The position numbers and the translations under genes are program-made. DNA of 64,000 nt, from the IMG/VR virus record IMGVR_UViG_2529292828_000009; one strand, written 5' to 3'. Source of the DNA: a virus (lineage: Duplodnaviria > Heunggongvirae > Uroviricota > Caudoviricetes). Shown one piece after another: positions 41,729 through 58,475 of this stretch. The notes beneath the pieces were generated by a model that had not been told where the DNA came from, did no database searches, and saw only the letters and a list, made by a program, of their open reading frames with translations. The first letter of the stretch is position 1. Each line of letters starts with the position of its first letter.

Positions 41729-42709
41729 ATGAACGCAATAATATCGCCCGATTATTACTATGTTCTTACCGTTGCTGGTCAGTCTAATGCCATGGCGTAT
41801 GGCGAAGGACTGCCATTACCGGACAGGGAAGATGCGCCTCATCCCAGAATTAAACAATTAGCGAGATTTGCGCATACGCATCCCGGAGGCCCGTCATGTC
41901 ACTTTAACGACATTATTCCACTGACTCACTGCCCACACGATGTTCAGGATATGCAGGGTTATCACCATCCTCTGGCAACGAATCATCAAACACAGTACGG
42001 CACCGTTGGCCAGGCACTGCATATTGCACGGAAATTACTACCCTTTATTCCTGATAATGCAGGGGTTCTCATCGTTCCATGTTGCCGTGGCGGATCGGCT
42101 TTTACCGCGGGCAGCGAAGGGACATATTCAGAACGGCACGGAGCCAGCCATGATGCTTGTCGTTGGGGAACGGATACTCCGCTGTACCAGGATTTAGTCA
42201 GCAGAACGCGAGCCGCACTGGCAAAAAATCCGCAGAACAAATTCCTCGGCGTATGCTGGATGCAAGGCGAATTTGACTTAATGACCAGTGACTACGCGTC
42301 ACACCCTCAACACTTTAATCATATGGTTGAAGCCTTTCGTAGGGATCTAAAACAATACCATTCTCAGCTTAATAATATTACTGACGCGCCGTGGTTTTGC
42401 GGCGATACCACCTGGTACTGGAAAGAAAATTTCCCGCATTCGTATGAAGCTATTTATGGCAATTATCAAAATAATGTTTTAGCCAATATTATTTTCGTCG
42501 ACTTCCAGCAACAAGGTGAAAGAGGACTGACGAACGCGCCTGATGAAGACCCGGACGATTTAAGCACGGGATATTACGGTTCAGCGTACCGGTCACCGGA
42601 GAACTGGACGACGGCACTGCGAAGCAGTCATTTCAGCACGGCAGCCCGTCGGGGGGTTATTTCTGACAGGTTTGTAGAAGCAATTTTGCAGTTTTGGCGT
42701 GAAAAGTGA
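41729..42709 (+). CDS. nanS: 9-O-acetyl-N-acetylneuraminate esterase NanS
   Basis: Start at internal Met MNAIISPDYYY; SGNH-like GQSNA motif; operon order. Confidence 0.9.
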   Translation: MNAIISPDYYYVLTVAGQSNAMAYGEGLPLPDREDAPHPRIKQLARFAHTHPGGPSCHFNDIIPLTHCPHDVQDMQGYHHPLATNHQTQYGTVGQALHIARKLLPFIPDNAGVLIVPCCRGGSAFTAGSEGTYSERHGASHDACRWGTDTPLYQDLVSRTRAALAKNPQNKFLGVCWMQGEFDLMTSDYASHPQHFNHMVEAFRRDLKQYHSQLNNITDAPWFCGDTTWYWKENFPHSYEAIYGNYQNNVLANIIFVDFQQQGERGLTNAPDEDPDDLSTGYYGSAYRSPENWTTALRSSHFSTAARRGVISDRFVEAILQFWREK

Positions 42710-42716
42710 GCGTTCA

Positions 42717-43367
42717 TTAATTTGATTTATTCGCATCCATCAACGCTTTTAACTCCTCCGGCGTAAAAGGTGGTTTGCGTCGGTGCAACATCGCATGGCA
42801 ATTAGGACACACAGGAAGCAAATCATTAACTGGATCCAGCAGGTAATCCTCTTTAACGGCTGAAAGCGGCACCAGGTGATGCATATGGATAAAGCCCTCA
42901 GCGATATCGCCATAGATCTTCACCAGATCAACGCCGCATACGTTGCACTGGCATCCGTGATATTCGACTGCTTTCTCGCGAGCTTTTTTATCGCGTTCAT
43001 AGCGGTTTACCGTCACCTTTATCGCCGCACCTTCAACGTAGGTCCCCTGCGACGGCAACTCATCCGGGAACAGAACATCGGCTATGGGAGCCGCAGCGGC
43101 TTTATCCTGATGAATATGAAATCCCTGATCTATAAGTAGTTTGACGCATTTAGATTTTATTCCGCCGGTGAAATCCGCAGGGGTAAATTGCGTCCCCGTC
43201 ATCAATGTCGCTGCGATGCCAGCAATCGCCTTCGAGGGGTAACGTCGGCCATGATATTCAATTTCATACAACCGTGCAGGCTGGAACTGATGAGTTTCTC
43301 CCGCATCCCATAAATGAATAGCTTCGATGATATACCGCCGCGGAAGATGATCGGGGAGTTTATTCAT
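42717..43367 (-). CDS. HNH endonuclease family protein with uncharacterised N-terminal domain (possible restriction/defence nuclease)
   Basis: C-terminal CQCNVCG...HMHHLVP...CPNCHAMLH zinc-finger HNH motif. Confidence 0.6.
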   Translation of the reverse strand: MNKLPDHLPRRYIIEAIHLWDAGETHQFQPARLYEIEYHGRRYPSKAIAGIAATLMTGTQFTPADFTGGIKSKCVKLLIDQGFHIHQDKAAAAPIADVLFPDELPSQGTYVEGAAIKVTVNRYERDKKAREKAVEYHGCQCNVCGVDLVKIYGDIAEGFIHMHHLVPLSAVKEDYLLDPVNDLLPVCPNCHAMLHRRKPPFTPEELKALMDANKSN

Positions 43368-43446
43368 AGAGAATGTCCTTATACGTTCTCAGAACAAGCA
43401 GCAAAAAAACAAATGAGATCAAAGTAATATATCTTCACTTGCAGGC

Positions 43447-43689
43447 TTGAACAGCAGAAAATTTGCGAGCATGATCGCAATTATTTCACTGCCAGGGATA
43501 TCAATGGCTTCCAGTAAATCGCTACAGCAGGCAATTGCCAATATAAAAATCTGGCATAAGGGTGAACAGCGCGCACCGCATAAACCATTGTTATTGCTAT
43601 ACGTATTAGCGGGATACCTGAATGGACATCCACGCCTTTTCGATTATTGTAGTGGAACAGTCTACGAGGATGCAGTTCGAAGTGAGTAA
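43447..43689 (+). CDS. Hypothetical small protein, possibly a gene fragment
   Basis: 80 aa ORF, no strong motif. Confidence 0.25.
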   Translation: MNSRKFASMIAIISLPGISMASSKSLQQAIANIKIWHKGEQRAPHKPLLLLYVLAGYLNGHPRLFDYCSGTVYEDAVRSE

Positions 43690-43745
43690 GTAAAGGTTGC
43701 TGGAAACGATCAATGCCGCCATACAATGATATTTGAGGATCAACA

Positions 43746-43931
43746 ATGAGTAATAAAAACTACGAAAGTCACCGCAAAGCGATTGTTAGTAAAGGTATAC
43801 CACCCGCTCTATTAAATAGGCTCACCAATTCGGATGTTCAGGTGATCAATACCTTCTTAACACGAGTGAGCAAACTGGAACTATCTCAACAAGAGAAAGA
43901 CTGGATCATAAAAATCATCTCTATGGTTTAG
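43746..43931 (+). CDS. Hypothetical small protein, possibly a gene fragment
   Basis: 61 aa ORF. Confidence 0.25.
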   Translation: MSNKNYESHRKAIVSKGIPPALLNRLTNSDVQVINTFLTRVSKLELSQQEKDWIIKIISMV

Positions 43932-44131
43932 AGAATTTCAGCCTTGTAGCCTTTCAAGGGTTTTGTGTGGGTACAAACATTATCGAATCGGGATATAGCC
44001 GCAGCTGTAGCTGTATCCACATCAGTAAGTTGATGTAGGTTGACTTAGGTTGAGCGAAAAATAGCGAAAAGCCTTGTGTGGCGCGGATTTCAGTCATAAA
44101 AAAACGTCCGTTGACGTCTATTGATGTTCCG

Positions 44132-44167
44132 ATGGTGCGAAGGTGCGAAGGTGCGAAGGCCGGACTC
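44132..44167 (-). repeat. Degenerate att-type direct repeat (tRNA 3'-end-like) with three tandem GGTGCGAA octamers
   Basis: TGGTGCGAAGGTGCGAAGGTGCGAAGGCCGGACTCG; last part matches the repeat at 55785..55808. Confidence 0.5.
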
Positions 44168-44519
44168 GCATATTCATTTAAATTGTTGTAAAAAATGGAT
44201 TTTATTAATAATTAATTCAATTATGCCCCCTTTTGTGCCCCCTCCATTCGCTGTTCACATTTTGATTTTTGTTGATTATTTATCCAAAAATTATCGAAGA
44301 AATAGTCAATCCAGTTAGGTTCCGTTAAACGGATCCAAACCGGGACTTGACTCAACAAAAAATACTTTTTTTTCGCAAAACCATGCACACTATTCACTCT
44401 GCAACTTTTAATTTATATATCAATTGGTTATGTATTAACAGTTAGGTGAAGAGTGAACTGCTATCTCTACATTCGTACGTTTCCAATAAGAAACCCGGCA
44501 TCAGCCGGGTTAGTTGTAA

Positions 44520-46844
44520 TTATTTGATTGTTAGCTCATCACACTTGGGAAGCCAGTCTGCATTACTTTCCTCTTTTAAAGTGAGGTTAGTCTGCATTCC
44601 CTGATTAGTTCGCCGCTTCTCATAATTTAGCCCGTATTCCTTCAGCATAACTGGTAGCCCTTTGCCAAACATTGTCAGGCTAAGGGTATTTTTAAAGCCA
44701 TTAGCCTCCATGTATACGAGATAGGCATGGTAAAGGTACGTACGTGGCTGGCGCGGGACAATATTGGCGTTCCCCATAAACATGCCGTTGGTGTCAGGTA
44801 ATGCCTCAAGGTAGCCACAAAAATCAAATGCTGGATCAGCATCACGCTTGATGGTGAGAGCCTCATCAGAATTCTGCTGCGACTGAAGCAATGTTCTGGC
44901 GCTCATCGGATCGCTGAAACGCTGCATGAGCTGACGAACAATCACAGCCAGTTCTCGTGCAATTTTATCTTTCAACTGCGGATCGCGTTCTTCCGGTGCT
45001 ATCTGCTCAGGAAAATGCAGAATAACTCTCCTGCGGGACACACCACCACTGCGATCAGTGAAGCGCATAGGATTATTATTTACGGCCAAGATAACCGCCG
45101 GAATATGTGTTGAATAAGCATTCTGATATTTGGGGTCCACAGATACTGCATCGCCACCAGTTATAGCCTTAAGCCCGGCGCCGTCGCCGCTCCACTTCTC
45201 CTGATCAGGCAGGCGAATAAGAGAAAAACCTATCAGAGCCGCACGTTCTCGCGGGGACTCCAGCGTTTCAATGGTCGCAGAGGTGGCGTTATCCTCTCCA
45301 GCAAGCATGGTCGCAATTTCAGCCAGAATACTTTTGCCACTTCCACCAGGGCCAGTCACTTCCAGAAAGAGCTGCCAGTCATAACGGTTCGCCAGCACCA
45401 TAAATAACGCTGCAAGAATAATGTCGCGTTTTGCTGGCTTGTGTCCGGCGGCCCGGTCCAACCAACGCCAGAATGCCGGGGCATGAGTTTCAAGCGTTTC
45501 CCCCTTTACCGGTGGCGTGAAATCGACTTCACACAGGGTACGCAGCCAGTTCTCTTTACAGTGCGGACTAAAAAGCCCTGTTCGCGTATCGAGAACGCCA
45601 TTACGAAAACCAATCAGATGACGTGACGGATTTTGCTGCTGCGGAACAATTAACTTTAATGTTTCCACCAGTGAGGCAATTTTTCCTGAGGAAAACGGTG
45701 CCCCGAGGCGCTGGAAAAGGGCTGCGACATCTCGGGCAAAATCTGACTGAGAAATAACTTTCCACGCTCCAGACTCGTAGCGGGATAAAAGCTGCCCGTT
45801 CGGATCAACCGCCAGTGCATCCCTGTAATGCTCCCGAACCCTCTGAGCTTTTTCGCTGACACTCATCGCTGTGAATTCTGCTTCACTCATTGTGTCGAAA
45901 GGACTGGCGTTATGTGGCTTCAAAGCCTCAAGAATTGCCTTCCGGGTGGATTCCTCTCCGTATTGGGTAAGCGCATCATTCCAGTCACCAAAAACCGGTG
46001 GCAGCACAATGTCACACTGACTCGCTTTTGCAGCAGTTTCAGCCCTGTTCTGGCCTGAACCATTCAGATCGCGGTCCGCTGCAATAATTAACTGATATCC
46101 AGGATACTTATTATGGGCAACGCTGCTCAGAGAAAGAAAGTTGACCGACGAAAATGCCACCATGACGGCTTCTCCTGTCAAATAATGAATGGTAAGCGCC
46201 GTGGCGTAACCTTCCGTAATCCAAATCCTTCTTACAGAACTCCCGCCCCCTTCTATCAGATGATAGGCCTCCTTAACCTGACCTCCTTTAAGAAAACACT
46301 TGCTACCATTGCTACTGATAAGCTGAATATTCACCAGCTCCCCGTCAGCGTTATAGAGTGGGACGATCAAATCACCGGGGCGGAACATCACACCACCGGC
46401 CTTATGAGCTGAAGTCAGCTCATGGCAAATATGCTCCGGGAAACCTTTATGTGTAAGATAAGTGTTTCCGGCAGATTCACGCGAGGCTTGCAGCAGTCGC
46501 GCGGCAAGTGCTGCCGCTGCATCTTTCCCGCTATCGGTATCGGCGGTTAACGTCCTGACCTCGGAATTAACTATAGACAGATCATGTGTCAGTCCATGTA
46601 TCCTGTCAGCTGCTTCACTGATATCCACATTCAGTGCCCTGGTGACAAGCGCTAAACCATCCCCGGCTCCGCACTGATTGCAGAACCATGTTCCGCGTCC
46701 TTCCTGATCGTCGAAGCGAAAACGATCTTTACCGCCACAGACCGGGCAAGGCTGATGGCGATTTTTCAATATATTCACGCCCAGCGCTGGCAGAATCTGA
46801 GCCCAGTGACCGCGGGCAGCCTTCACGGCCTGACTGACTTTCAT
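44520..46844 (-). CDS. P4 alpha-like primase-helicase (start at internal Met)
   Basis: Zinc-binding CPVCGGKD...CNQCG N-terminus, central primase region, C-terminal Walker A GPGGSGKS. Confidence 0.85.
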   Translation of the reverse strand: MKVSQAVKAARGHWAQILPALGVNILKNRHQPCPVCGGKDRFRFDDQEGRGTWFCNQCGAGDGLALVTRALNVDISEAADRIHGLTHDLSIVNSEVRTLTADTDSGKDAAAALAARLLQASRESAGNTYLTHKGFPEHICHELTSAHKAGGVMFRPGDLIVPLYNADGELVNIQLISSNGSKCFLKGGQVKEAYHLIEGGGSSVRRIWITEGYATALTIHYLTGEAVMVAFSSVNFLSLSSVAHNKYPGYQLIIAADRDLNGSGQNRAETAAKASQCDIVLPPVFGDWNDALTQYGEESTRKAILEALKPHNASPFDTMSEAEFTAMSVSEKAQRVREHYRDALAVDPNGQLLSRYESGAWKVISQSDFARDVAALFQRLGAPFSSGKIASLVETLKLIVPQQQNPSRHLIGFRNGVLDTRTGLFSPHCKENWLRTLCEVDFTPPVKGETLETHAPAFWRWLDRAAGHKPAKRDIILAALFMVLANRYDWQLFLEVTGPGGSGKSILAEIATMLAGEDNATSATIETLESPRERAALIGFSLIRLPDQEKWSGDGAGLKAITGGDAVSVDPKYQNAYSTHIPAVILAVNNNPMRFTDRSGGVSRRRVILHFPEQIAPEERDPQLKDKIARELAVIVRQLMQRFSDPMSARTLLQSQQNSDEALTIKRDADPAFDFCGYLEALPDTNGMFMGNANIVPRQPRTYLYHAYLVYMEANGFKNTLSLTMFGKGLPVMLKEYGLNYEKRRTNQGMQTNLTLKEESNADWLPKCDELTIK

Positions 46845-46867
46845 TCCTGACATGACGCAGTTCTCCC

Positions 46868-47191
46868 TCAGTGTAAAACCGGCTTTTTGATGTGACGGAC
46901 GCATAACTCATCCATTACGGCTATTCCGAGCTGGGAGAGTGCGGGACAGGACATTAGAGGGCCGTATTCCATCAGGTCTGAAAGCAGGGCGCAGGCGATT
47001 TCCATGCCTTTTGTTTGCCCGTGCTGTCGCAGATAAAATCCTTCAAGCTCACGGGCAATAGCGGTTTCAATTTCATCCAGAGTGAGCTGCAGATGGCGGT
47101 TTTGCTGATAGCAGGCACTCAACCAGGCGCAGGCTACCGCGCGGCGATACAACGCTACCCGAAGTGAAAGGGAAAGAGTGCGTGATTTCAT
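46868..47191 (-). CDS. Hypothetical protein of the P4-like left operon
   Basis: 107 aa ORF directly upstream of alpha. Confidence 0.4.
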
Positions 47192-47412
47192 TGCACCACC
47201 TCCATGTTCATGAGGTCATCCTGGCAACGCTGTACCACGCCATCAAGCTGCTCTGTCATCAGATAAATCAGGGAAACCAGTTGTTCACATTGAGCACTGG
47301 CAGGTTTTTCGTAGCAATCCTGAAGAACAGCCATTCCAGTGACAAACTCTCCCACGTTACGAAGATGCTTCAGGCGGAGAATATCGTCATAAGAGATTGC
47401 GGCGTGATTCAT
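47188..47412 (-). CDS. Hypothetical small protein (position equivalent to P4 epsilon; start at internal Met)
   Basis: ORF between immunity region and alpha operon. Confidence 0.35.
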
Positions 47413-47599
47413 TAGATCACCTCCCGGACAGGCAGGCGAGCAGCAAGACAAAGCACATACTCATGGACCAGTGAAAGACGTGCATGATGCTCATTGCTGG
47501 CGATGATACGCAGCATACTGATACGTGGTTTACGTTCTGCACGACGAACGGCGGCAAAAACAAATATAAATTGAGGATGTGACGGGGCGAGGATCGTAG

Positions 47600-47870
47600 C
47601 CATAAGGGCAACCTCCAATAAGTAGCGGTAAATGCCACCACCGGAGTTCCTACGCTCATGGGTGGTGACCCGAACGGGGGTAGGAATACCGGCCTTATTG
47701 GAAACCGGCCAGCCCGAAGGCTGCCCCGCCCGGACCACCATTATCTGAAAGGGGCTAAGGTATAAGCACCGCAGCCCGAAAAATGGGTGTGCCTGAGCAA
47801 CGACGTAAAAAAAGACGCACGGCGCGTCTGGTGTCGCCAATAAGTAACTCGGGTTCCTACGCCCGGCAGC
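47600..47870 (-). ncRNA. Candidate P4-type CI-like immunity RNA region
   Basis: Two direct copies of CCAATAAGTA...GGNGTTCCTACGC (~47615-47655, ~47837-47862) flank a complementary segment GGGGGTAGGAATACCGGCCTTATTGG (~47676-47702); hairpin + T-run on minus strand at ~47796-47828. Confidence 0.4.
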
Positions 47871-47956
47871 CGATTTTGCGGCAGCGGGAAAACTATACCT
47901 GGAAAAGATATCAGGACGCAAGCCAGAAAAAAGGAGATGAGACTGCAAAGCAAGTT

Positions 47957-48217
47957 TCACGCATGGCCTCCTTGCTCGCGGGCAGCAATTCGCGCCGCCA
48001 TCCATGCACTGACCTCCGACTGTACCCAGGCCACATTTTTTCCACCCAGGGATATCTGCTGCGGGAAGGCATCGCGGCTGATAAGGTCGTAGATGGTTGA
48101 ACGGGATAGCCCGCAAAGGTGCATCACTTCAGGTAATCGTATGAAGCGCTCCTGCTGAGCCGGAACCGGGAGCACCGGAGCAGCTGGTGCCGGGGTGGAA
48201 ACGGAAATACTATTCAT
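47957..48217 (-). CDS. AlpA-family transcriptional regulator
   Basis: 86 aa; [23 protein letters not shown] typical of AlpA. Confidence 0.8.
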
Positions 48218-48860
48218 CTGGCTACCTCTCTAATATGTTTACAACAGTCCGGGCAATTCCATGCGGATTCAGGTAGCTCCTTATTATGTTTATATAAGCG
48301 GCTCGCGCATGCTTTATTTATTTTGTGTGAAATGTTGATTTCTCAAAAAATAAAACAGCTAAAAACCGTATGAAACGAACAAAAACAAACAATTCCTTTA
48401 TGGAATATAATAAGGAGCATCAATAATAAAAAAGTCTATTACACTAGGCAGGATCACAGCTCAAATCTGAACCAGCCCATATCATTCAGGGCTTTACATC
48501 ATAAGCACTAAGACAACACCTGATTAATAAAAGAGCCAAAAACGGCCAAAAATAAACAGCTCACCATATGTATCAATAAATCCGATGATTAAAGAAATTA
48601 AATTACCATCTTACTTCCGCATGTATCCGAATGTGTTTAATGAACATCAGACAAATTCATTTTTATGAATATTTTCCTGAAATGCAACTGAGTGCAGGGA
48701 GGTTGAATGTTCAATTATTAAACAGATATAAGACATCTTTTATTCTTTACATAGAATATGTATTGAATACTGGTGAATATTGGTGAGGAGAAAAGATCCA
48801 GTAATAAACTGAAATAAATATCGCGACTTATATGAAAAAGAAATATATGTTTAATTTTAT

Positions 48861-48970
48861 CTCTGTGAACAGTCATGAACAGTAGATGATCACTTTAATT
48901 AAAACACTACACCACTTAACCACATGTATTTACTATATTTTTATTGAAGTGAACAGTAGTGAATAGTATG
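48861..48970. repeat. Cluster of GTGAACAG-like octamer repeats (candidate alpha-binding iterons)
   Basis: gtgaacag / atgaacag / gtgaacag / gtgaatag within ~110 bp of AT-rich intergenic DNA. Confidence 0.35.
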
Positions 48971-49122
48971 TATTAAAGGAAGCGTGTAGATCAGACATGA
49001 CACCTTTCTCTGGCTAGCCAGAACAAGGTCATTGTTCAGTCACTGACACAATCCTCCTCGGTAGTGCGCTTGTATGGACCCCGGCACAATTGACACAACA
49101 ACAAAACACTACCGGAGCAGCC

Positions 49123-49875
49123 ATGACAACTGTTAACCAGATCTCTGATGCAAACATTACCCCCACCCTCCCGCCGAAAATTCGCGAAGCGGTGGAAAAA
49201 GTTAAGGCAGCAAAAGCTGTCTGGCAGGAAGAACGGCGAAAACAAACCGAAGCTGCTGCAATGACTGAAACTATCCGTAAACGTCAGGAAGATACAAAAA
49301 CGGAGACGCAGGCGCTTAATGATGAATGGCGAAACCTGTTTCGTGAGAATCAGGGGAATATGACGCCACGAATGAAAAAACTGCGGGCAGAAATCGCCCT
49401 CGGACGCGAAACACTAGATGAGTTCGAAGATTTGCTGGCTGCTCAGGCTGCAGAAAATGAATTCCTGCCATGGAAAACTGCGGATGCTGCAAACCGCTAC
49501 ATCAGCGAACATAATCACCTGATTGAAACTCATGCAGTGTGGCTCTGGAATGAGTTTATGAAGGAACACGGCCAGAAACTTATTCAGATCCTTGGACTGC
49601 TGAAAATGACTCTGGGCCGAAGCGCATCTTCTGTTATCGGTGTAGTTCATACCGTAAACGACCCCGAAAGTGTGCTGAAGCAATTTATCAGCGAGCAACT
49701 CACCACTCCGGCACTGTTCTGTAACGTATCTTCAACGGATGATATTGCCCTGCCGGGGATCAGCATTTATGCGGACGATAAAGCCATACAGGATGCCAGA
49801 CAATCACCCAGCCCTGCAGCACGTTCCCGGATGCTTAAACAGCGTGACATGGCTAAAGGGGGCGAGAAGGAATGA
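49123..49875 (+). CDS. Sid-like capsid size-determination protein (putative)
   Basis: Coiled-coil-rich ORF directly upstream of psu; GGAG RBS before internal ATG. Confidence 0.5.
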   Translation: MTTVNQISDANITPTLPPKIREAVEKVKAAKAVWQEERRKQTEAAAMTETIRKRQEDTKTETQALNDEWRNLFRENQGNMTPRMKKLRAEIALGRETLDEFEDLLAAQAAENEFLPWKTADAANRYISEHNHLIETHAVWLWNEFMKEHGQKLIQILGLLKMTLGRSASSVIGVVHTVNDPESVLKQFISEQLTTPALFCNVSSTDDIALPGISIYADDKAIQDARQSPSPAARSRMLKQRDMAKGGEKE

Positions 49876-50426
49876 ATACCGGAACCATTACTCAGGAAGC
49901 TCTCAACGATTACCGCGCGGCAATAAAAAGCTGGCTGACACTACGTAATGTGCAAAGTACCAGCCAGCTTCGTCTGGCTGCTTTGCTGGATACTGAAGAA
50001 AAACCCGCAGCATATGCCAGCCAACTTGAGGATCTTCGTGAGCGTCTTGCACTCCTCGAATGGCAGATTAACTGTGCCGCCCGGGATGGTCTTTATGCTC
50101 ACCAGATTGTGCTGGAAAGCTGTGTTACAAGCGCAACTGAAAACTTCATGAGCGAGCATGGTGATGCACTCACTGACGCTCTGGCTCCTTTTCTTTGTGC
50201 ACCATACGGGCTTGAGGCGGCAATGAAAATATTACGAACCGCTGTAGCCCGACAAACGGAAGTCCGTACTCCGGTAATTTCAGCAGCATATAAGAGCATT
50301 ATCGACGAAACCGGATTAACGGTGGATGCATCAATGCGCGCTGATGCTTCAGCCAGTTTCACCCCGGCACAACATAAAGTTTTCCTGGCCCGCCTTAACC
50401 GACTTAATGAAAAAGGAGTGTGCTGA
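49872..50426 (+). CDS. psu: Polarity suppression protein Psu
   Basis: 184 aa; segments resemble P4 Psu as recalled (FTPAQ..., HGxAL..ALAP). Confidence 0.75.
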   Translation: MNTGTITQEALNDYRAAIKSWLTLRNVQSTSQLRLAALLDTEEKPAAYASQLEDLRERLALLEWQINCAARDGLYAHQIVLESCVTSATENFMSEHGDALTDALAPFLCAPYGLEAAMKILRTAVARQTEVRTPVISAAYKSIIDETGLTVDASMRADASASFTPAQHKVFLARLNRLNEKGVC

Positions 50427-50427
50427 T

Positions 50428-50700
50428 ATGGCCCTGAAGTGTCCTGAATGTGGCGCGGTCGCTCACGCCAGAACCAGCGCCTATGAAGCTCCGTCGGTTA
50501 AACGCTCATGGTATCAGTGCCAGAATCTGGAATGTTCCTGCACATTTACCGCACTGGAAAGCGTGGATACGATAATTATGAAGCCTCGGTGCAATGAACA
50601 GGAATCAGACAAAGCAAAAATACCGGAAAAACAACAGCAAACTCTCAATCGCTATGGCTCCGCGTCAAAGCTGTCAAACCGTCAGCAAATTCCTGTCTGA
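50428..50700 (+). CDS. Ogr/Delta-family zinc-finger late transcription activator
   Basis: CPECGAVAHARTS...YQCQNLECSCTF pattern as in P2 Ogr. Confidence 0.8.
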   Translation: MALKCPECGAVAHARTSAYEAPSVKRSWYQCQNLECSCTFTALESVDTIIMKPRCNEQESDKAKIPEKQQQTLNRYGSASKLSNRQQIPV

Positions 50701-50723
50701 TTAGCAAAATACGACCACGAAGT

Positions 50724-50747
50724 CCCGGTCCAGTACCGGGATTTTTT
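50724..50747 (+). terminator. Rho-independent terminator after delta
   Basis: CCCGGT-loop-ACCGGG hairpin followed by T-run. Confidence 0.5.
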
Positions 50748-50791
50748 ACGCCTTTTCCCTGGCTGGCCTGAGAGCGTATGAGTGCATATCT

Positions 50792-50830
50792 ATGGCGCAT
50801 GAAAACGCATGAGTCTCATGCGCCATTTTT
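50792..50830 (+). terminator. Second hairpin + T-run
   Basis: 11-bp stem ATGGCGCATGA/TCATGCGCCAT followed by TTTTT. Confidence 0.4.
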
Positions 50831-51306
50831 GACGCGAAAGCCCTTGTGTGGTGGCTTCTGAGACGATTTACGGGGTGCATGAAAACCAGTCTGTTAAGCG
50901 AAGCTGGCAGGCGGGCGGGGCTGCTCGCGCTAAGGGAGAAAATAGCAAACTCAGCCGCGCAGGCGGTGACAATGATTGACGAGATACTGGCTGGCAGTTG
51001 CTGAAATCTCCGCAATGATTCAAGAACTGCAGTGTATCGATGCAGCACACGTAAACTGAGCGGCGCTACGGGTAATATTTATAGATTTGTCATCCTTAGT
51101 GAGCATGGTTCTCACTCTTGTAACCTCTACCTGTACAAGATATCGTAAGACCTCAGATCAAACATGCACGTGTATTAAAGGTGGGCAAGCGTGGCGGGAA
51201 GATAATTGTGCGCACTGTAGTCAAAGATAGGGATTGTGATTACTTTTTCTTCCAGCCGTGGTGTAGTAAATTATTGGGAACAAACTCTTAATGACATCAA
51301 TGGATA

Positions 51307-52605
51307 ATGATTATGACTACAAATCCGGACGGATACATCTCATTTTTAAAACCCGGTAGTAACGACTGGAAAGCATTAGATAGTAAATCGTTTATTTATT
51401 GGCGAGACTACATAACGAATGAAAGTTTAGAAGAGTCAGGAGATTCTATTTCTCCAGCACAATCTCTTACTGATGGTGAAAAGAAGGAGTTGAAAGACAA
51501 TCAGGCATATATAAACGAACTATTACTAAAATCATTACAATTCCCAAATCTTGCATTCTTCGCTGGGAGTGGTACTTCGCTTGGGGACGTTGGAGGACCA
51601 AGCATGTGGGATCTCTGGAAGTGTGCAATGTGGAGTGAATCTTCTATAAACGAGGATGGTCAATTAAAACCTGATGCTCAAATTGTTTGTGATAAAGTAA
51701 AATATAAAGAGCGAGAGTATCCTAACATAGAACACTTTCTTTCTAATTGTGAAGCATATTTAGCATTTCATGATGATGAAGAAGTGTTGAATTTTTTAAA
51801 TAAAGTTAAAACAATTATTTTAGACAAATGTCGCTCATTTATTGATGATGGCAACTGTGATCTTTCAGCTTACATCAATTTATTACAAAAAATGGGGAGG
51901 AGGAGAGTCAGAGATCCTAGACTAAAAGTTTTCACAACTAACTATGATTTAGCCTTTGAAACAGCTGCTTCTGAATTAGGAATGATGGTAGTTGATGGTC
52001 TTTCATATACAGGAGTTCGCAGATTCGATGGTAAATATTTTAACTACGATGTTGTTAAAAGAGATGAAAACGAGCATGAGTTTGTAGAGGGCGTATTCCA
52101 GTTATTTAAACTCCACGGTTCTGTAAGTTGGATAAGAAAGGATGGGCAAATATATGAATCCAGCCAACCAACAGCAACAAACGCATGTCTAATATATCCA
52201 GCGAAAGGTAAATATCAGCAAGCCTTTATTCAACCTCACTTAGAATTACTTTCAAGATTGTTAGATTTCTTGAGAAAAAGAAATAACTGTTTAGTTATAT
52301 CTGGATTTGGTTTCAATGATGACCATCTTTCTGAACCAATTTACTCAGCAATAAAATCCAATCCAAGCATGAGGTTGATTATAGTAGATTTCAAATGTGC
52401 AACTCATATTCGGAATAAAGGGGGGGACGGTTCTAGTAAATATTGGGATTTACTAAAACAACTCTCACTATCAGGTTATGACATTCACTTCATAAATGCA
52501 TCTTTCAGTGATTTTGTTAAATTAGTTCCCAATCTTAAAGCATTAACCCCAGCAGAACAGTTGGCTAAGGTAATAAAACAAGTAGGAGTTAACAATCAAT
52601 TATGA
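51307..52605 (+). CDS. SIR2-like NADase domain protein (candidate anti-phage effector)
   Basis: Motifs FFAGSGTS...GPSMW, TTNYD and KLHGS resemble SIR2-family NAD-binding/catalytic motifs. Confidence 0.75.
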   Translation: MIMTTNPDGYISFLKPGSNDWKALDSKSFIYWRDYITNESLEESGDSISPAQSLTDGEKKELKDNQAYINELLLKSLQFPNLAFFAGSGTSLGDVGGPSMWDLWKCAMWSESSINEDGQLKPDAQIVCDKVKYKEREYPNIEHFLSNCEAYLAFHDDEEVLNFLNKVKTIILDKCRSFIDDGNCDLSAYINLLQKMGRRRVRDPRLKVFTTNYDLAFETAASELGMMVVDGLSYTGVRRFDGKYFNYDVVKRDENEHEFVEGVFQLFKLHGSVSWIRKDGQIYESSQPTATNACLIYPAKGKYQQAFIQPHLELLSRLLDFLRKRNNCLVISGFGFNDDHLSEPIYSAIKSNPSMRLIIVDFKCATHIRNKGGDGSSKYWDLLKQLSLSGYDIHFINASFSDFVKLVPNLKALTPAEQLAKVIKQVGVNNQL

Positions 52606-54323
52606 TTAATACAACACTACAGCTTGGTATTTTGAGGGGCGACCTTAAGGTTGGAGTAGTCTCATCAATTTTTGCTCAAACAGTTAGAGCAAATTTAATC
52701 TATGCAGGGGAACTCAGCGGAACATATATAGAAGGTTGTAGATATGGAAAAGGAGAAGTTGGTGAAATATTATTAATAGAAGGACAACAATCTATTGTTC
52801 TTGGCCGTTTAATAGAGGTTAAATTACCAGAGCGAGATAGAGGTGAAATATCTGTCGGGTCTCAAGGAAACTTCAAAGTTGATGCTATCGGCATTATACA
52901 ACTTCTTGGAACTATTGATCCTTCAAATTTTAGAATTGATTCAGGAATCAAATCATATCCTCGATTAGGAGATCGAGTTTATTCTGCTCCCTTAGATTTT
53001 ATTTCTTTAATACCAGAATTAATTAATAAAGGAATTAAAGATAACGAGGAAGAAAGAATAGGTATTGTATTAGGCATTATATCTGGAGGGGCAACAAGTA
53101 TAGTAACTGTTGAACCTGATAAACTCTTCGGTCGTCATTGTGCTATCTTAGGAGCTACAGGCGGTGGAAAAAGTTGGACAACTTCCAAGTTAATTGAAGA
53201 GTGTTCGAATTACGAAAACTCTAAAACTATAATAATTGATGCAACCAGTGAGTATAGATCGTTTAAATCTGATTATTGTTTACATTACCATTTAGGTGCC
53301 CCAATAAATAAAAACATAAATTCTTTAGAATTTAGAATTCCACCTACCGACTTTGTTGAGTCAGACTTTATTGCCATGTTCGATCCTTCTGGAAAAGTAC
53401 AGGGTCCTAAGCTAAAAGAAGCGATAAAAAGCCTTAGATTAGTAGCTTTAGAACCTAGAATAGCAACCGATGGTATTTTAAAAAAAATCAATCAACCTAA
53501 AACAGATTATCGACGCGCAATGAATACTGGAGACAACTCTAAACTTGTTGATAATCCATCACAACCATTTGATATAACAAAACTTATAAAACAGATTGTA
53601 CAAGAATGTTGTTACGATAATGGAGATAATACTTGGGGAAACGCTGCAACTCAAGACTTAAGCTATTGCTCATCTTTGTTAACCAGAATTCAAGCAGTAA
53701 CGTATGCCAACTCGTTAAGGTCTGTTTTTAATAGTAACGAGGATATATCCACACTAGGTGAAATATTAGAAACTTTTTTACAATCTGATAAACGAGTCCT
53801 AAGGTTATGCCTAAGTGATGTTAGCTATGAGTTTTATGCTAGAGAAATTTTAGCCAATGTAATCGGCAGAAAACTTTTAACTTTAGCTAGGCTTGAAAAA
53901 TTCAGAACAAGACCGCTGTTAGTTATTGTTGATGAAGCCCATAACTTCCTTGGCAAACGGGTTGGTTCTGAAGATCATGCAATTAAACTTGACGCTTTTG
54001 AGATGATTGCAAAAGAAGGCAGGAAATATGGCCTTAATATATGCTTAACAACTCAAAGACCCAGAGATATCACTGAAGGTGTGCTTAGTCAAATTGGAAC
54101 CTTATTGGTTCATCGCTTAACAAACGACCGAGATCGAGAAGTCGTTGAGCGTGCATGCGGTGAAATTGATAAATCTGCAGCATCTTTTCTACCAAGTCTC
54201 AAACAAGGTGAAGTTGCTCTTGTAGGGGTTGACTTCCCTATTCCTATGACCATCCAGATAGATAAGCCAATATATCCACCAGAATCTGATTCTCCAGGCT
54301 ATTGCAATATATGGAAAAAATAA
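52602..54323 (+). CDS. HerA/FtsK-like ATPase (partner of SIR2-like protein)
   Basis: Walker A GATGGGKS, Walker B LLVIVDEAHNF; start overlaps upstream stop (ATGA). Confidence 0.75.
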   Translation: MINTTLQLGILRGDLKVGVVSSIFAQTVRANLIYAGELSGTYIEGCRYGKGEVGEILLIEGQQSIVLGRLIEVKLPERDRGEISVGSQGNFKVDAIGIIQLLGTIDPSNFRIDSGIKSYPRLGDRVYSAPLDFISLIPELINKGIKDNEEERIGIVLGIISGGATSIVTVEPDKLFGRHCAILGATGGGKSWTTSKLIEECSNYENSKTIIIDATSEYRSFKSDYCLHYHLGAPINKNINSLEFRIPPTDFVESDFIAMFDPSGKVQGPKLKEAIKSLRLVALEPRIATDGILKKINQPKTDYRRAMNTGDNSKLVDNPSQPFDITKLIKQIVQECCYDNGDNTWGNAATQDLSYCSSLLTRIQAVTYANSLRSVFNSNEDISTLGEILETFLQSDKRVLRLCLSDVSYEFYAREILANVIGRKLLTLARLEKFRTRPLLVIVDEAHNFLGKRVGSEDHAIKLDAFEMIAKEGRKYGLNICLTTQRPRDITEGVLSQIGTLLVHRLTNDRDREVVERACGEIDKSAASFLPSLKQGEVALVGVDFPIPMTIQIDKPIYPPESDSPGYCNIWKK

Positions 54324-54326
54324 TTA

Positions 54327-54346
54327 GTAGGGTCTTTGACCCTACT
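54327..54346. terminator. Bidirectional hairpin terminator between convergent HerA-like gene and int
   Basis: GTAGGGTC-TTTG-GACCCTAC with T-rich flanks on both strands. Confidence 0.45.
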
Positions 54347-54361
54347 TTAAAATTTTTAAAG

Positions 54362-55633
54362 CTAGATAGTTTTTTTTGCAAAGTCGTAGGGGGTTATATA
54401 TTCCTGAGTGTTAGCATCAAGATAATCGGCCCACCACTGAACCATTAAACGACGCTCATCCAAATGCTCTGAAGTATGAATATAAGCAGCCCTAACGCTA
54501 TTACGCTCAGAGTGGCTTAGCTGACGTTCTATCGCGTCATCACTCCACAACCCTGATTCGCCCAAAGCACCGCGCGCCATAGTTCTGAATCCATGCCCGC
54601 AAACTTCGGTTTTTGTGTCATACCCCATTGTGCGCAAAGCACTGTTAACCGTGTTTTCACTCATAACTTTAGTTGCGTCATGATCTCCCGGAAACAGTAG
54701 CTCTTTATCACCACTAATCTGCTTAAGCTGCTCTAACAAAATCATCGCCTGCCGACTAAGCGGAACGATATGCTCCTCTTTCATCTTCATCCCACGGTAC
54801 GAGTAACGGACACCTTTAATTTCTTCTCGTTTTGCCGGTATACGCCAAAGAGATTTATCGAAGTCGAATTCATCCCAGCGAGCGAAACGCAACTCACTGG
54901 AACGCACAAAAGTTAGTAAGGAAAGCTCGACTGCAATCCGTGTCATTAAACGGCCACGATATGCAGCAAGACGTGCAAGAAACTCAGGGAAACGGTTAGA
55001 GGGTAAAGCTGGATAGTGTCGTGCTTTGGTTGTCGATAAAGCACCAGCCATATCACTGGCTGGGTTTGAGTCGATATAATCGTTCTGTACGGCATAACGC
55101 ATAATAGCTGTAACACGCTGCTGAAGACGCTGCGCGACGTCATGCTTACCACTGGCATCAACTTTTTTAATCGGGGCTAACAGGTGGCTTGTTTTAAGCT
55201 GGCGGATATCGGACGATCCGATATGAGGGAAGATATAAAGCTCAAGATAGCGAAGAACGCGCGCTCTATGGTCTTCACTCCAGCGCTTGTTACTGGCATG
55301 CCATTCACGAGCGATCGTTTCGAAAGTATATGCCCCCGATTTCTCGGCCTGAGCCGCTTTCTGCTCGGCTTTTGGATCAATACCCTGCACTAATAATCTT
55401 TTAGCTTCATCACGTTTTGCCCTTGCCTGGGCAAGTGTCACAGTAGGCCAAACGCCAAAAGCGAGGCGATCCTCTTTTTTGTCTGAAGGGCGTCTGTATT
55501 TCATACGCCAGTATTTAGATCCCTTGGCCGAAACCTCAAGATACAAACCGCCACCATCGGCCATTTTGTAGGTTTTGTCTTTTGGCTTTGCGGTCTCGAC
55601 CAGTCTGGCGTTGAGCTTCATTTGGGGGCACAT
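54362..55633 (-). CDS. P4-type tyrosine integrase
   Basis: 423 aa; C-terminal R...H..R...Y catalytic pattern; adjacent to att repeat. Confidence 0.9.
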   Translation of the reverse strand: MCPQMKLNARLVETAKPKDKTYKMADGGGLYLEVSAKGSKYWRMKYRRPSDKKEDRLAFGVWPTVTLAQARAKRDEAKRLLVQGIDPKAEQKAAQAEKSGAYTFETIAREWHASNKRWSEDHRARVLRYLELYIFPHIGSSDIRQLKTSHLLAPIKKVDASGKHDVAQRLQQRVTAIMRYAVQNDYIDSNPASDMAGALSTTKARHYPALPSNRFPEFLARLAAYRGRLMTRIAVELSLLTFVRSSELRFARWDEFDFDKSLWRIPAKREEIKGVRYSYRGMKMKEEHIVPLSRQAMILLEQLKQISGDKELLFPGDHDATKVMSENTVNSALRTMGYDTKTEVCGHGFRTMARGALGESGLWSDDAIERQLSHSERNSVRAAYIHTSEHLDERRLMVQWWADYLDANTQEYITPYDFAKKTI

Positions 55634-55784
55634 TTCTAATCGAAGTCAAGATGCCCCTAATTATGCCCCCAATGGCATCCGGATTTCAACGGACAATCTC
55701 GGACGACTCCGGACATAAGAATCACTGTACTCATTGAATTATAAGGAACAATTGGACTTTCTCGGATGATCTTGGAAGTGCTAA

Positions 55785-55808
55785 TGGTGCCGAAGGCCGG
55801 ACTCGAAC
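55785..55808 (-). repeat. att repeat: 24-nt copy of a tRNA 3' end (tRNA-Leu-like), not an intact tRNA
   Basis: TGGTGCCGAAGGCCGGACTCGAAC is the reverse complement of ...GTTCGAGTCCGGCCTTCGGCACCA; sequence beyond it does not continue as a tRNA. Confidence 0.7.
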
Positions 55809-56155
55809 ATCGCAACTATCCTTATGATCTTTAGTAATTAAAGCAATCTACATTGTCGATGATACCATCATTGATACCATCAGACCCGATTGATGATAAT
55901 CGAACAGTAATAAAATATGACTAAACAATTTATGCTTCAACATAAGATTGAATGCTTTGATCTACCATTTTAATGCAGTGGAAAAATTTTTAACACAATA
56001 CTTAAGAAAAATAATTTCATATAAAAACTACATTTCATTTCATATAGTTAACACACCAAAAACAACTGTATATAAACCCAGTAAAAAATGGTAGAATCAC
56101 TATTGTGTTCAATTGTTGAACATTTATAATACATTTGTCGGATAGGGGGGTGTTT

Positions 56156-56743
56156 ATGCAAAGGAACACATACAACAAAGTAGGTCTATACATCCTATCT
56201 TTAGCTATGCTTTTTGTTTTTATTATTATCCTGACTGCCAAAATCCCCTTTTGCTTCACTTCGGATTGTAGCTTCATAGGTTTGAAGAGACTTGTATTAA
56301 CAAATATTGTTCCTATTGTTTGCTTTGTATTTTTTCTATTTAGTATTTATTTTTATAATAGATTAAAAAACATAACAAAATACAATGGACAAGATAGCGT
56401 TAAAATAACATCATGTCAAAGCGAAAGCTATGAAAGTTTAACATTCTTAGCAACATACATTGTACCTTTTATGGGGTTTAGTTTTGAAGACATGCAAAAG
56501 AATATAGCATATCTTTTGCTTGTAGTAGTAATAGGCATTATTTTTATTAAAACAGACAAGTATTATGCGAATCCAACTTTAGCTCTGTTTGGCTTTAAAC
56601 TATACAGGGTAAATATACTACACCCAGGAAGTGGAGAAACAAAAAATCTGATAGCTATTTCAAATGATGTATTAAAAGTGGACGATAATGTTTATTATAG
56701 TTTCTTTGATGAATTTGTTTTTATAGCAAGGAAAAAAATATGA
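56156..56743 (+). CDS. Four-TM membrane protein, KwaA-like (putative Kiwa component)
   Basis: Four hydrophobic helices; GGGGGG RBS before ATG; ATGA overlap with downstream gene. Confidence 0.45.
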   Translation: MQRNTYNKVGLYILSLAMLFVFIIILTAKIPFCFTSDCSFIGLKRLVLTNIVPIVCFVFFLFSIYFYNRLKNITKYNGQDSVKITSCQSESYESLTFLATYIVPFMGFSFEDMQKNIAYLLLVVVIGIIFIKTDKYYANPTLALFGFKLYRVNILHPGSGETKNLIAISNDVLKVDDNVYYSFFDEFVFIARKKI

Positions 56744-57687
56744 CTACTCAGCAGTTAAAAGAAAAAATTTCAAAAATAATTGATAACTTTAGCGGAATCA
56801 GGGTTGTATTTACTACTACTGCTAATGAACTAAAGCTTTCCAGAATTGAAGGGAGTGCATTAAATAGCATAGCTGAAGGGTTTATTGACAAAATCAAAGA
56901 AGACATTATAAATAATGAAGATCTCACCTCACCATTGCTGTCCAATTTTGATGATAGAAAAAATGCCTTGTTTAAATTTGATTACGAACAATATCCTGAA
57001 GAATTTAACAAAATCACTCAGGCCATCGCTATCCCTCCTAACTCACAAGATTATTATAACCCTTTAAATAAATTCACAGATGTGAAAGGAATTATAATTT
57101 TAATAAGTGGAGATAACAAATGCCTGGCTCTTTATAAAAACAAAACTAACCTTGCAGTATTGAGAAATAGCAGAAAAATGTTTAATTTAGTCCCTGACCC
57201 TGATGGATACTTGAAACAACTCCCTAATGAGATATTACGGTTAGATTTCAATTATGATCTATTATCAATTGGTGAGGATTTTTACATTAAAAATCACAAG
57301 ACTCTTGAAACTCAAATGAAATTTCATCAAGTGATTGAAGCCCAGGCAGTTATTGCTTTAAATTCTTTACGGGATTCACTACTAATTGAAGACATATCAG
57401 GTTTAGAAAAGAGTTCGAGAGAAATTTCATTCGCTAGAAAGTTGGCAAAAATCTCCAAACATTCTCCTGTTTTGGGGAAAATAGATACTAAAACAATTAT
57501 CGATTATGTATCCCAACATAAATATTTATCTGCAATACTTCAGATTAATGAAGCAGGAAATAAGTTATTAATTAAAACCAAGACATCACAGAAGCATTTC
57601 ATTAAACTCATGAGCGATGATTATTTACAATCAGATCTAACTAAAATAATATACATGAGCATAGCAAAAGACAGATTAGATGAATAG
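56740..57687 (+). CDS. Soluble ~315 aa protein, KwaB-like (putative Kiwa component)
   Basis: Size and operon architecture match Kiwa; no motif verified. Confidence 0.4.
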   Translation: MTTQQLKEKISKIIDNFSGIRVVFTTTANELKLSRIEGSALNSIAEGFIDKIKEDIINNEDLTSPLLSNFDDRKNALFKFDYEQYPEEFNKITQAIAIPPNSQDYYNPLNKFTDVKGIIILISGDNKCLALYKNKTNLAVLRNSRKMFNLVPDPDGYLKQLPNEILRLDFNYDLLSIGEDFYIKNHKTLETQMKFHQVIEAQAVIALNSLRDSLLIEDISGLEKSSREISFARKLAKISKHSPVLGKIDTKTIIDYVSQHKYLSAILQINEAGNKLLIKTKTSQKHFIKLMSDDYLQSDLTKIIYMSIAKDRLDE

Positions 57688-57700
57688 AATTTTAAGTAGA

Positions 57701-57745
57701 AGTGACAAATATTATAAACCATTCTTGAAATATATTTGTCACTAT
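57701..57745. terminator. Inverted repeat between convergent genes (bidirectional terminator candidate)
   Basis: GTGACAAATAT ... ATATTTGTCAC. Confidence 0.35.
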
Positions 57746-57751
57746 TACTAA

Positions 57752-58423: not shown

Positions 58424-58475
58424 ATTGATTTACCTCTATTTATAATAGTAAAAGAGGGGTCCCCCCCCCTCTTTT

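What the first reader, a model, noticed from the sequence alone, without database searches (positions are those of the whole stretch)
43447..43931. Two short ORFs next to the att repeat look like gene remnants
An 80 aa and a 61 aa ORF lie in the same orientation between the HNH gene and the degenerate att repeat, in a region with no clear promoter-gene structure. They may be fragments of a disrupted gene left from an earlier integration or excision.
Basis: inference. Interest (0 to 1): 0.2.

Follow-up and report, generated by a model that had tools for sequence, protein, structure and literature searches.

The report
Restriction-gene stump plus intact small gene
The first short ORF is a dead fusion of the stumps of two genes, and the second is a complete, conserved small mobile-element gene of unknown function; this is an ordinary scar at the edge of an E. 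coli tRNA-linked island.

Summary
Both ORFs are at the stated coordinates, in an E. coli nanCMS / leuX island region.

**ORF1 (43447-43689)** is a remnant, and a composite one:
- From ATG 43504, codons 1-48 are the N-terminus of a 290-aa phosphorothioate-DNA-dependent SBD-HNH restriction endonuclease. This gene is intact at the same locus in other strains.
- At 43648-43667 it joins, in frame, the last 27 codons of an unrelated 64-aa signal-peptide protein gene ("X").
- A CAA>TAA change in that tail supplies ORF1's stop.
- RefSeq already marks the endonuclease part as a pseudogene. Other strains have also lost its start codon or gained a stop.

**ORF2 (43746-43931)** is not a fragment:
- It matches phrog_25874 over its full length.
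- It has 61-80% identical, same-length homologues in other enterobacterial genera.
- It keeps its Shine-Dalgarno site, and dN/dS is 0.06-0.18.
- Its native setting is a recombinase > X > ORF2 module in prophages and integrative elements. Here only the 3' end of that module survives.
- Its function is unknown.

The same junction occurs in 969 of 5426 complete E. coli genomes. To the right lie a fossil integrase-upstream/att stretch and an 11.6-kb P4-like satellite. The finding is ordinary and of low interest.

The parts
43447..43689 (+). ORF1 as listed mechanically (80 aa, TTG start). It is a composite pseudogene. Codons before 43504 are untranslated leader in intact homologues.
43504..43647 (+). 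Stump of the phosphorothioated-DNA-binding SBD-HNH restriction endonuclease: codons 1-48 of 290.
   Evidence: NF045808 positions 2-45 of 284, E=1.7e-16. 93% identical to residues 1-54 of the intact 290-aa protein of L005. DNA identity to L005 ends at 43647. PGAP annotates a pseudogene missing its C-terminus at 43504-43653.
43648..43667 (+). Junction zone between the two gene stumps. 43648-43660 is of ambiguous origin. TCTACGA at 43661-43667 is shared by both parent genes (microhomology).
   Evidence: alignments; the reading of microhomology is inference
43660..43749 (+). 3' remnant (codons 38-64 plus stop) of gene X, a 64-aa signal-peptide small protein. It carries an in-frame TAA at 43687-43689 (CAA in intact copies), which is ORF1's stop. 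X's natural TGA overlaps ORF2's ATG.
   Evidence: tblastn with intact X: 70% over 27 aa, E=5e-12; translations and alignment
43746..43931 (+). ORF2: intact 61-aa small helical protein (WP_000066585.1, phrog_25874). GAGG Shine-Dalgarno site 7 nt upstream.
43942..43959 (+). [not shown]
43946..44143 (.). Fossil of the integrase-upstream region plus the first bases of the leuX 3' end of an older island. About 80-82% identical to the int-leuX intergenic region of strain rl0044. No integrase remnant lies to its left.
44133..44173 (-). Degenerate att repeat: leuX 3'-end copy with GGTGCGAA repeated three times. Its direct-repeat partner is at 55791-55810, and the pair brackets the 11.6-kb P4-like element.
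42717..43367 (-). Intact 216-aa HNH endonuclease, the divergent neighbour of the endonuclease stump. Both genes are intact in some strains.

Best explanation
The interval is a recombination scar at the chromosome-proximal edge of the leuX island array of E. coli.

Ancestral state (shown in other strains): nanS, then the HNH gene on the minus strand, then an intact 290-aa SBD-HNH phosphorothioate-dependent restriction endonuclease on the plus strand, then variable defence genes.

What happened in this lineage (junction shown, mechanism inferred): an illegitimate deletion or recombination joined codon about 48-54 of the endonuclease to codon about 37 of gene X. The crossover probably used the 7-nt TCTACGA that both genes share. 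Gene X is the middle gene of a small tyrosine recombinase > X > ORF2 module carried near the ends of prophages and integrative elements.

ORF1 is the result. It is the first third of the sulfur-binding domain fused in frame to the tail of X, and it is closed by a later CAA>TAA mutation. It has no sulfur pocket and no nuclease domain, so it is a dead pseudogene.

ORF2 is the last gene of that module and survived whole. It keeps its ribosome-binding site and the stop/start overlap with X. It is a genuine protein-coding gene for a 61-aa, four-helix, mildly basic cytoplasmic protein of unknown function.

Inference only: ORF2 can now be transcribed only by read-through from the retained endonuclease promoter region, or from a weak promoter-like site created at the junction. 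I put about 50% on it still being expressed and used, and about 50% on it being an intact but idle relic.
For: ORF1, endonuclease part:
- NF045808 match covers model positions 2-45 only.
- An intact 290-aa gene sits at the same locus in L005, L028 and L029.
- Identity to that protein is 93% over residues 1-54, and nothing beyond is present in 42600-44600.
- DNA identity breaks at 43647/43648.
- The SBD spans residues 5-142 by alignment to the ScoMcrA SBD structure 5ZMO. The HNH_2 domain lies at 182-236. Both the sulfur pocket and the nuclease domain therefore lie beyond the break.
- PGAP annotates a pseudogene.
- Further decay occurs elsewhere: ATG>ATA in L002 and L006, and Q9* in the plasmid copy L011.

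ORF1, tail:
- Window 43660-43740 is 70% identical to residues 38-64 of intact X, with an in-frame stop.
- Intact X genes and the recombinase > X > ORF2 module are seen in L016, L017 and L021-L023.

ORF2:
- Full-length match to phrog_25874, E=3.7e-47.
- Homologues 61-80% identical, 60-64 aa, in Citrobacter, Raoultella, Phytobacter and others, with a conserved start and Shine-Dalgarno site.
- dN/dS is 0.06-0.18 wherever dS is not saturated.
- It is intact in all seven E. coli and Shigella loci that carry the ORF2 segment.
- The AlphaFold model has pLDDT 86 and four helices.

Population:
- The same junction occurs in 969 of 5426 complete genomes, and the ORF2 segment in 970.
- In E. coli complete genomes this segment was found at 95-100% identity only, and it was linked to the endonuclease stump in every locus examined.
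Against: - No expression data were available for either ORF.
- Within E. coli the alleles differ by only 0-3 substitutions in ORF2. Its intactness there is not in itself evidence of present-day selection. The purifying-selection signal comes from comparisons between genera.
- PGAP leaves ORF2 unannotated in most genomes.
- The 13 nt at 43648-43660 match neither parent well, so the exact crossover point and the microhomology mechanism are inferred.
- No fold or family match gives ORF2 a function.
Confidence: 0.85

Rival explanations
1. One reading: the two ORFs are pieces of one disrupted gene, split by a frameshift or an insertion.
For: They have the same orientation, lie 56 nt apart, and sit beside a fossil att site.
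Against: The intact endonuclease has no similarity to ORF2 or to any frame of 43690-44600. ORF2 has its own conserved start, Shine-Dalgarno site, stop and full-length family. ORF1's tail belongs to a third gene, X.
Confidence: 0.02
2. ORF2 is a bona fide gene by descent but is functionless here. It would be an intact relic that has simply not yet been hit, stranded without its own promoter after loss of the recombinase and X.
For: Both flanks are breakpoints (43648-43667 and 43941/43946). E. coli alleles are too similar for intactness to be informative. No significant promoter was found. PGAP often does not call it. Frameshifted variants exist in the protein collections (P0184-P0197).
Against: It is intact in every locus examined. 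The two commonest exact sequences are each seen on at least 1000 contigs. The Shine-Dalgarno site and the stop/start overlap are kept. It is co-oriented with a retained upstream promoter region, with no terminator between.
Confidence: 0.45
3. The endonuclease-X fusion ORF (61 aa from ATG 43504) is a new functional micro-protein. One possibility is a decoy or dominant-negative fragment of the sulfur-binding domain.
For: The fusion is in frame and the junction is kept in 969 genomes.
Against: The start codon is ATA in L002 and L006, and a stop sits at codon 9 in L011. The fragment holds only about a third of the SBD and lacks the sulfur-pocket positions. Its stop is a nonsense mutation inside X.
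Confidence: 0.03
4. Both ORFs are chance open frames in non-coding spacer DNA.
For: Short ORFs abound here: 76 of at least 30 aa in 7 kb.
Against: The homology is strong and specific: E=1.7e-16, 5e-29 and 3.7e-47. The substitution pattern is codon-aware.
Confidence: 0.01

Closest known systems
SBD-HNH phosphorothioate-dependent restriction endonucleases (NCBIfam NF045808). Characterised examples are EcoWI, SprMcrA and ScoMcrA (PMC7461809, PMC6224610).
   Same: ORF1 codons 1-48 from ATG 43504 are the N-terminus of this family. They are 93% identical to the intact E. coli allele at the same locus. That allele aligns to the ScoMcrA SBD structure and carries an HNH_2 domain.
   Different: Only about one third of the SBD is left. 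There is no sulfur pocket, no HNH domain, and a foreign C-terminal tail. The bit score of 60 is far below the family cut-off of 180. I could not verify whether the intact allele is EcoWI itself, because no accession is given in the papers read.
phrog_25874 / WP_000066585.1, an uncharacterised 61-aa protein family
   Same: Full-length, end-to-end match. The protein is identical to the RefSeq entry annotated in strain D6.
   Different: No function is assigned. In E. coli it sits as an orphan, without the recombinase and X genes that precede its closest relatives.
Uncharacterised 64-69-aa signal-peptide protein family (gene X) of Enterobacteriaceae. It has no Pfam or NCBIfam model.
   Same: Window 43660-43740 is 70% identical to its last 27 residues, including the conserved QCRHTM(T/I)FED end and the stop that overlaps ORF2's start.
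   Different: The signal peptide and the first 37 codons are missing, and an in-frame TAA interrupts what remains.
Tandem island arrays at tRNA-leuX with P4-type integrases (P4-like satellites, KpLE2-type elements). This comparison rests on established knowledge.
   Same: Degenerate direct repeats of the leuX 3' end bracket an 11.6-kb element with a P4-type integrase, primase, Sid, Psu and Delta. An older integrase-upstream/att fossil lies just to its left.
   Different: Nothing unusual. The older island is reduced to about 200 bp.

Membership tests
SBD-HNH PT-dependent restriction endonuclease (NF045808) | Sequence homology to the family | tested here: met
   E=1.7e-16 to model positions 2-45. 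93% identity to residues 1-54 of the intact allele. The score of 60 bits is below the 180-bit cut-off because only a fragment is present.
SBD-HNH PT-dependent restriction endonuclease (NF045808) | Complete sulfur-binding domain with the pocket residues (ScoMcrA Y164/P165 equivalents) | tested here: not met
   The SBD spans residues 5-142 of the intact allele, and the pocket equivalents lie at about residues 74-75. The window copy ends at residue 48-54.
SBD-HNH PT-dependent restriction endonuclease (NF045808) | C-terminal HNH nuclease domain | tested here: not met
   HNH_2 lies at residues 182-236 of the intact allele. There is no trace in any frame of 42600-44600.
phrog_25874 small protein (ORF2 family) | Full-length match with conserved start, stop and length | tested here: met
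   Match 1-61 of 61, E=3.7e-47. Homologues are 60-64 aa with aligned starts.
phrog_25874 small protein (ORF2 family) | Protein-level purifying selection | tested here: met
   Nei-Gojobori dN/dS is 0.06-0.18 for unsaturated pairs. In the remaining pairs pS is 0.8-1.0 against pN of 0.12-0.31.
phrog_25874 small protein (ORF2 family) | Expression of the copy in this window | not testable with these tools
   No transcript or peptide data were available. Only the Shine-Dalgarno site GAGG 7 nt upstream and one weak promoter-like site bear on this.
Gene X small secreted protein | N-terminal signal peptide and an uninterrupted frame of about 64 codons | tested here: not met
   Only residues 38-64 are present, with TAA at 43687-43689.
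P4-type att duplication at leuX | Direct repeats of the tRNA 3' end bracketing an element that carries an integrase | tested here: met
   The repeats 44154-44173 and 55791-55810 are 90% identical. The integrase lies at 54362-55633. No complete tRNA is present in the window.

The most novel reading that the evidence does not exclude
The small tyrosine recombinase > secreted mini-protein X > ORF2 module could be an uncharacterised functional cassette of enterobacterial prophages and integrative elements. It might be a superinfection-exclusion system, a toxin/immunity-like pair, or a recombinase accessory system. The orphan ORF2, kept intact in about 18% of E. coli and now placed behind the promoter region of a dead restriction gene, could have been domesticated for a host function.
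Probability: 0.1. Interest if true: 0.35.

Novelty: already known. Interest (0 to 1): 0.12.

Why it matters
It matters little beyond annotation hygiene:
- ORF1 should be read as a two-gene chimeric pseudogene, whereas RefSeq flags only the endonuclease part.
- ORF2 should be annotated consistently as a real small gene. PGAP calls it in only some genomes.

The locus also illustrates how type IV-like restriction genes beside leuX are repeatedly eroded by mobile-element traffic. The only open thread is the unknown role of the recombinase-X-ORF2 module.

Tried and rejected
1. ORF2 as a frameshifted continuation of the endonuclease. tblastn with word size 2 found nothing beyond residue 54.
2. ORF2 as an antisense artefact over an integrase remnant, or a leftover of the 205-aa recombinase. 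tblastn with three P4-type integrases and the recombinase gave no hit with E below 0.05 in 43400-44200.
3. Pfam, NCBIfam and PADLOC gave nothing for ORF2. The only Pfam hit was a sub-threshold Arm repeat, E=0.16.
4. Hits of ORF2 to 650-2200-aa proteins (P0188, P0198-P0201) are tandem-repeat translations whose weak per-repeat similarity adds up. I rejected them as artefacts.
6. No phage-record hit for ORF2 and no Rfam family in 43300-44550.
7. Mutual exclusivity of the intact HNH gene and the intact endonuclease. Rejected, because both are intact in L028 and L029.
8. A shared gene neighbourhood for all ORF2 homologues. None exists. Contexts vary apart from the X/recombinase link in the closest relatives.
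9. Identity of the intact allele with EcoWI could not be checked, because the papers give no accession.

Full report
**Setting**

The window is Escherichia coli chromosome, and the 1.2-kb query around the finding (43300-44520) is 100% identical to strain D6 and others. Left of the finding lie nanC, nanM and nanS and an intact 216-aa HNH endonuclease gene on the minus strand (42717-43367). To the right lie, in order:
- a degenerate copy of the 3' end of tRNA-Leu (leuX), at about 44133-44173, with GGTGCGAA repeated three times;
- an 11.6-kb P4-like satellite prophage, closed by a second repeat at 55791-55810. It encodes a primase, DUF5375, Icd, Sid, Psu, Delta, a SIR2-HerA cargo and a P4-type integrase;
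- a further island carrying Kiwa and a type IIG restriction-modification enzyme.

No complete tRNA is in the window. The real leuX therefore lies beyond 64000, and the window holds a tandem array of islands.

**Observation**

Both ORFs exist exactly as described. By themselves they are not remarkable, since one search lists 76 ORFs of at least 30 aa in these 7 kb. Only one promoter-like site was found in 43300-44550, fewer than expected by chance.

**ORF1, first part**

- NCBIfam places residues 25-68 of the 80-aa ORF on positions 2-45 of the 284-position model for phosphorothioated-DNA-binding restriction endonucleases, with E=1.7e-16.
- At the same locus, strain 08-3342 (L005) has an intact 290-aa gene, and so do L028 and L029.
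- The window is 93% identical to residues 1-54 of that protein, starting at ATG 43504. A low-stringency tblastn finds nothing of residues 55-290 in any frame of 42600-44600.
- DNA identity to L005 is 98.8% up to 43647 and then stops.
- The intact protein aligns over residues 5-142 to the sulfur-binding domain of ScoMcrA, structure 5ZMO. It carries HNH_2 at residues 182-236.
- The stump therefore keeps about a third of the sensor domain, lacks the pocket positions (about residues 74-75) and has no nuclease.
- PGAP already annotates it as a pseudogene missing its C-terminus.
- Other carriers have decayed further. L002 and L006 have ATG>ATA, and the plasmid copy L011 has a stop at codon 9.

Enzymes of this architecture, such as EcoWI, cut phosphorothioate-modified DNA and restrict dnd+ plasmids (PMC7461809). 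I could not check whether the intact allele is EcoWI itself.

**ORF1, tail**

Homologues of ORF2 in other genera are preceded by a 64-66-aa gene that I call X. It encodes a product such as MKRLLVLTLALLPALANA-TQITLILSDE...ICLYENAVRSEQVKVAASAQCRHTMTFED. Reading the N-terminus as a Sec signal peptide is my inference from the sequence. The stop codon of X abuts or overlaps the ORF2 start.

The window reads VYEDAVRSE*VKVAGNDQCRHTMIFEDQQ* in ORF1's frame. tblastn with an intact X aligns its residues 38-64 to 43660-43740 at 70% identity, E=5e-12. The TAA that ends ORF1 (43687-43689) is CAA in intact copies.

ORF1 is thus an in-frame fusion of two unrelated gene stumps with a later nonsense mutation. 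The join lies in 43648-43667. Both parents carry TCTACGA at that point, which suggests microhomology-mediated illegitimate recombination. This is inference, because the 13 nt before the shared heptamer match neither parent well.

X belongs to a family of about a hundred protein clusters of hypothetical proteins in Enterobacter, Klebsiella, Citrobacter, Cronobacter, Kluyvera and some E. coli. It has no Pfam or NCBIfam model.

**ORF2**

- It matches phrog_25874 end to end (1-61 of 61, E=3.7e-47) and is RefSeq WP_000066585.1.
- An exhaustive search of 1.8 billion cluster representatives found only small relatives. Examples are P0189 (64 aa, 68%), P0195 (63 aa, 63%) and P0196. It also found spurious tandem-repeat proteins.
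- A scan of one genome per species found copies in Citrobacter, Raoultella, Phytobacter and Kluyvera, and in a record labelled Chryseobacterium. Identities were 67-80%.
- All copies except the Kluyvera one are intact, 60-64 aa, with aligned starts. The closest ones share the upstream TTTGAGGA Shine-Dalgarno region.
- DNA similarity to these loci is confined to the X tail plus ORF2, window 43661-43912.
- Pairwise Nei-Gojobori dN/dS is 0.06-0.18 where synonymous sites are not saturated. Elsewhere pS is 0.8-1.0 against pN of 0.12-0.31.
- An AlphaFold model built on eight sequences is confident (pLDDT 86) and shows four helices. No search gave an informative structural neighbour.

ORF2 is therefore a real, complete gene by descent and not a remnant. 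Its function remains unknown.

**Native context of ORF2**

In E. coli contigs L021-L023 the order is a 205-aa tyrosine recombinase, then X (64 aa, overlapping the recombinase stop), then an ORF2-like gene of 60-61 aa. This sits at the end of a prophage next to proA/proB. Citrobacter sp. NCU1 has two such modules on one contig, with only 25% identical recombinases. Raoultella keeps a relic of the recombinase C-terminus. X also occurs without ORF2, behind a serine recombinase. More distant ORF2 homologues have other neighbours, such as a primase-helicase in L009 and Hha/YeeR in L010. There is no universal neighbourhood. No recombinase remnant survives in the window.

**Population picture**

| Feature | Complete E. 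coli genomes (of 5426) |
|---|---|
| Exact stump/X junction | 969 |
| ORF2 segment | 970 |
| At least 80% of the endonuclease gene | 1707 |

- In complete E. coli genomes the ORF2 segment was found only at 95-100% identity, and it was linked to the stump in every locus examined. No diverged paralogue appeared there at blastn sensitivity.
- Twenty-four plasmid copies were found. The two examined are the same stump (plus ORF2 in L011) captured next to IS elements.
- Breakpoints to the right vary by strain: 43941, about 44167 and 44242. Different islands follow in each case.
- 43946-44143 is about 80-82% identical to the stretch between a P4-type integrase start and leuX in strain rl0044. It is therefore the fossil tRNA-proximal end of an older island. 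The P4-like element was later inserted on its tRNA side.

**How it works**

ORF1 does nothing. It is a decaying chimeric pseudogene.

ORF2 retains what it needs for translation. It lies co-oriented behind the retained endonuclease promoter region with no predicted terminator in between, so read-through expression is plausible but untested. E. coli alleles differ by at most three substitutions in ORF2. Intactness within the species therefore cannot settle whether it is still under selection, and I rate use against idleness at about even.

**Verdict**

ORF1 and the region are scars of past mobile-element traffic, but ORF2 is not a fragment and the two ORFs are not parts of one gene.
- Both features are already in RefSeq annotation.
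- The only mildly new points are the chimeric nature of ORF1 and the recombinase-X-ORF2 module.
- Interest is low.

Noticed in passing
window 44154-55810: An 11.6-kb P4-like satellite prophage bracketed by leuX-derived repeats. It has a primase (44520-46904), Sid/Psu/Delta (49090-50700), a SIR2 (51307-52605) plus HerA (52602-54323) defence pair as cargo, and a P4-type integrase (54362-55633).
   Followed up: partly
window 56135-61754: The next island in the array carries Kiwa (KwaA 56135-56743, KwaB 56740-57687), an 8xMP membrane protein (57752-58423) and a 1092-aa type IIG restriction-modification enzyme (58476-61754).
   Followed up: partly
L011 5835-6232 (plasmid pCFSAN061772_01) and L012 3805-3954: The chromosomal endonuclease stump (plus ORF2 in L011) has been captured on large resistance or conjugative plasmids. 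It lies between IS1 copies in L011, and between IS903B and a TnAs1 transposase gene in L012. There are 24 plasmid hits in all. The L011 copy has an extra stop at codon 9 of the stump.
   Followed up: partly
window 42822-43394 versus L003 and L005: In E. coli 042 and O111:H2 08-3342 the HNH gene is reduced to its last 35 codons by a 570-bp deletion. The BLAST alignments on the two sides of the deletion overlap by 12 nt in the locus sequence. The neighbouring endonuclease is full-length in 08-3342 but annotated as partial (missing its N-terminus) in 042. Both genes are intact in L028 and L029, so the two losses are independent.
   Followed up: yes
L016 1745-2735 and L017 7203-8174 (same Citrobacter sp. 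NCU1 contig): Two recombinase > X > ORF2 modules lie about 23 kb apart in the same orientation. Their recombinases are only 25% identical, while X and ORF2 are much more similar. This hints that X-ORF2 travels as a cassette behind different recombinases.
   Followed up: partly
L004 4366-7624: In strain 2018-11-3CC an IS1 sits exactly at the stump junction (window 43649). It is followed by a second, intact and divergent phosphorothioate-dependent endonuclease (67% identical at the N-terminus), an integrase and leuX. This forms a minimal leuX island that re-supplies the lost function.
   Followed up: no
window 44134-44157: The att copy contains a perfect triplication of the 8-mer GGTGCGAA that is not present in the partner repeat at 55791-55810.
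   Followed up: no
L015 (record titled Chryseobacterium sp. 18061): An ORF2 homologue 80% identical to the E. coli one, with an X gene and neighbouring LysR and Hcp genes, sits in a contig labelled Chryseobacterium. The gene content looks enterobacterial, so the record may be mislabelled or contaminated.
   Followed up: no
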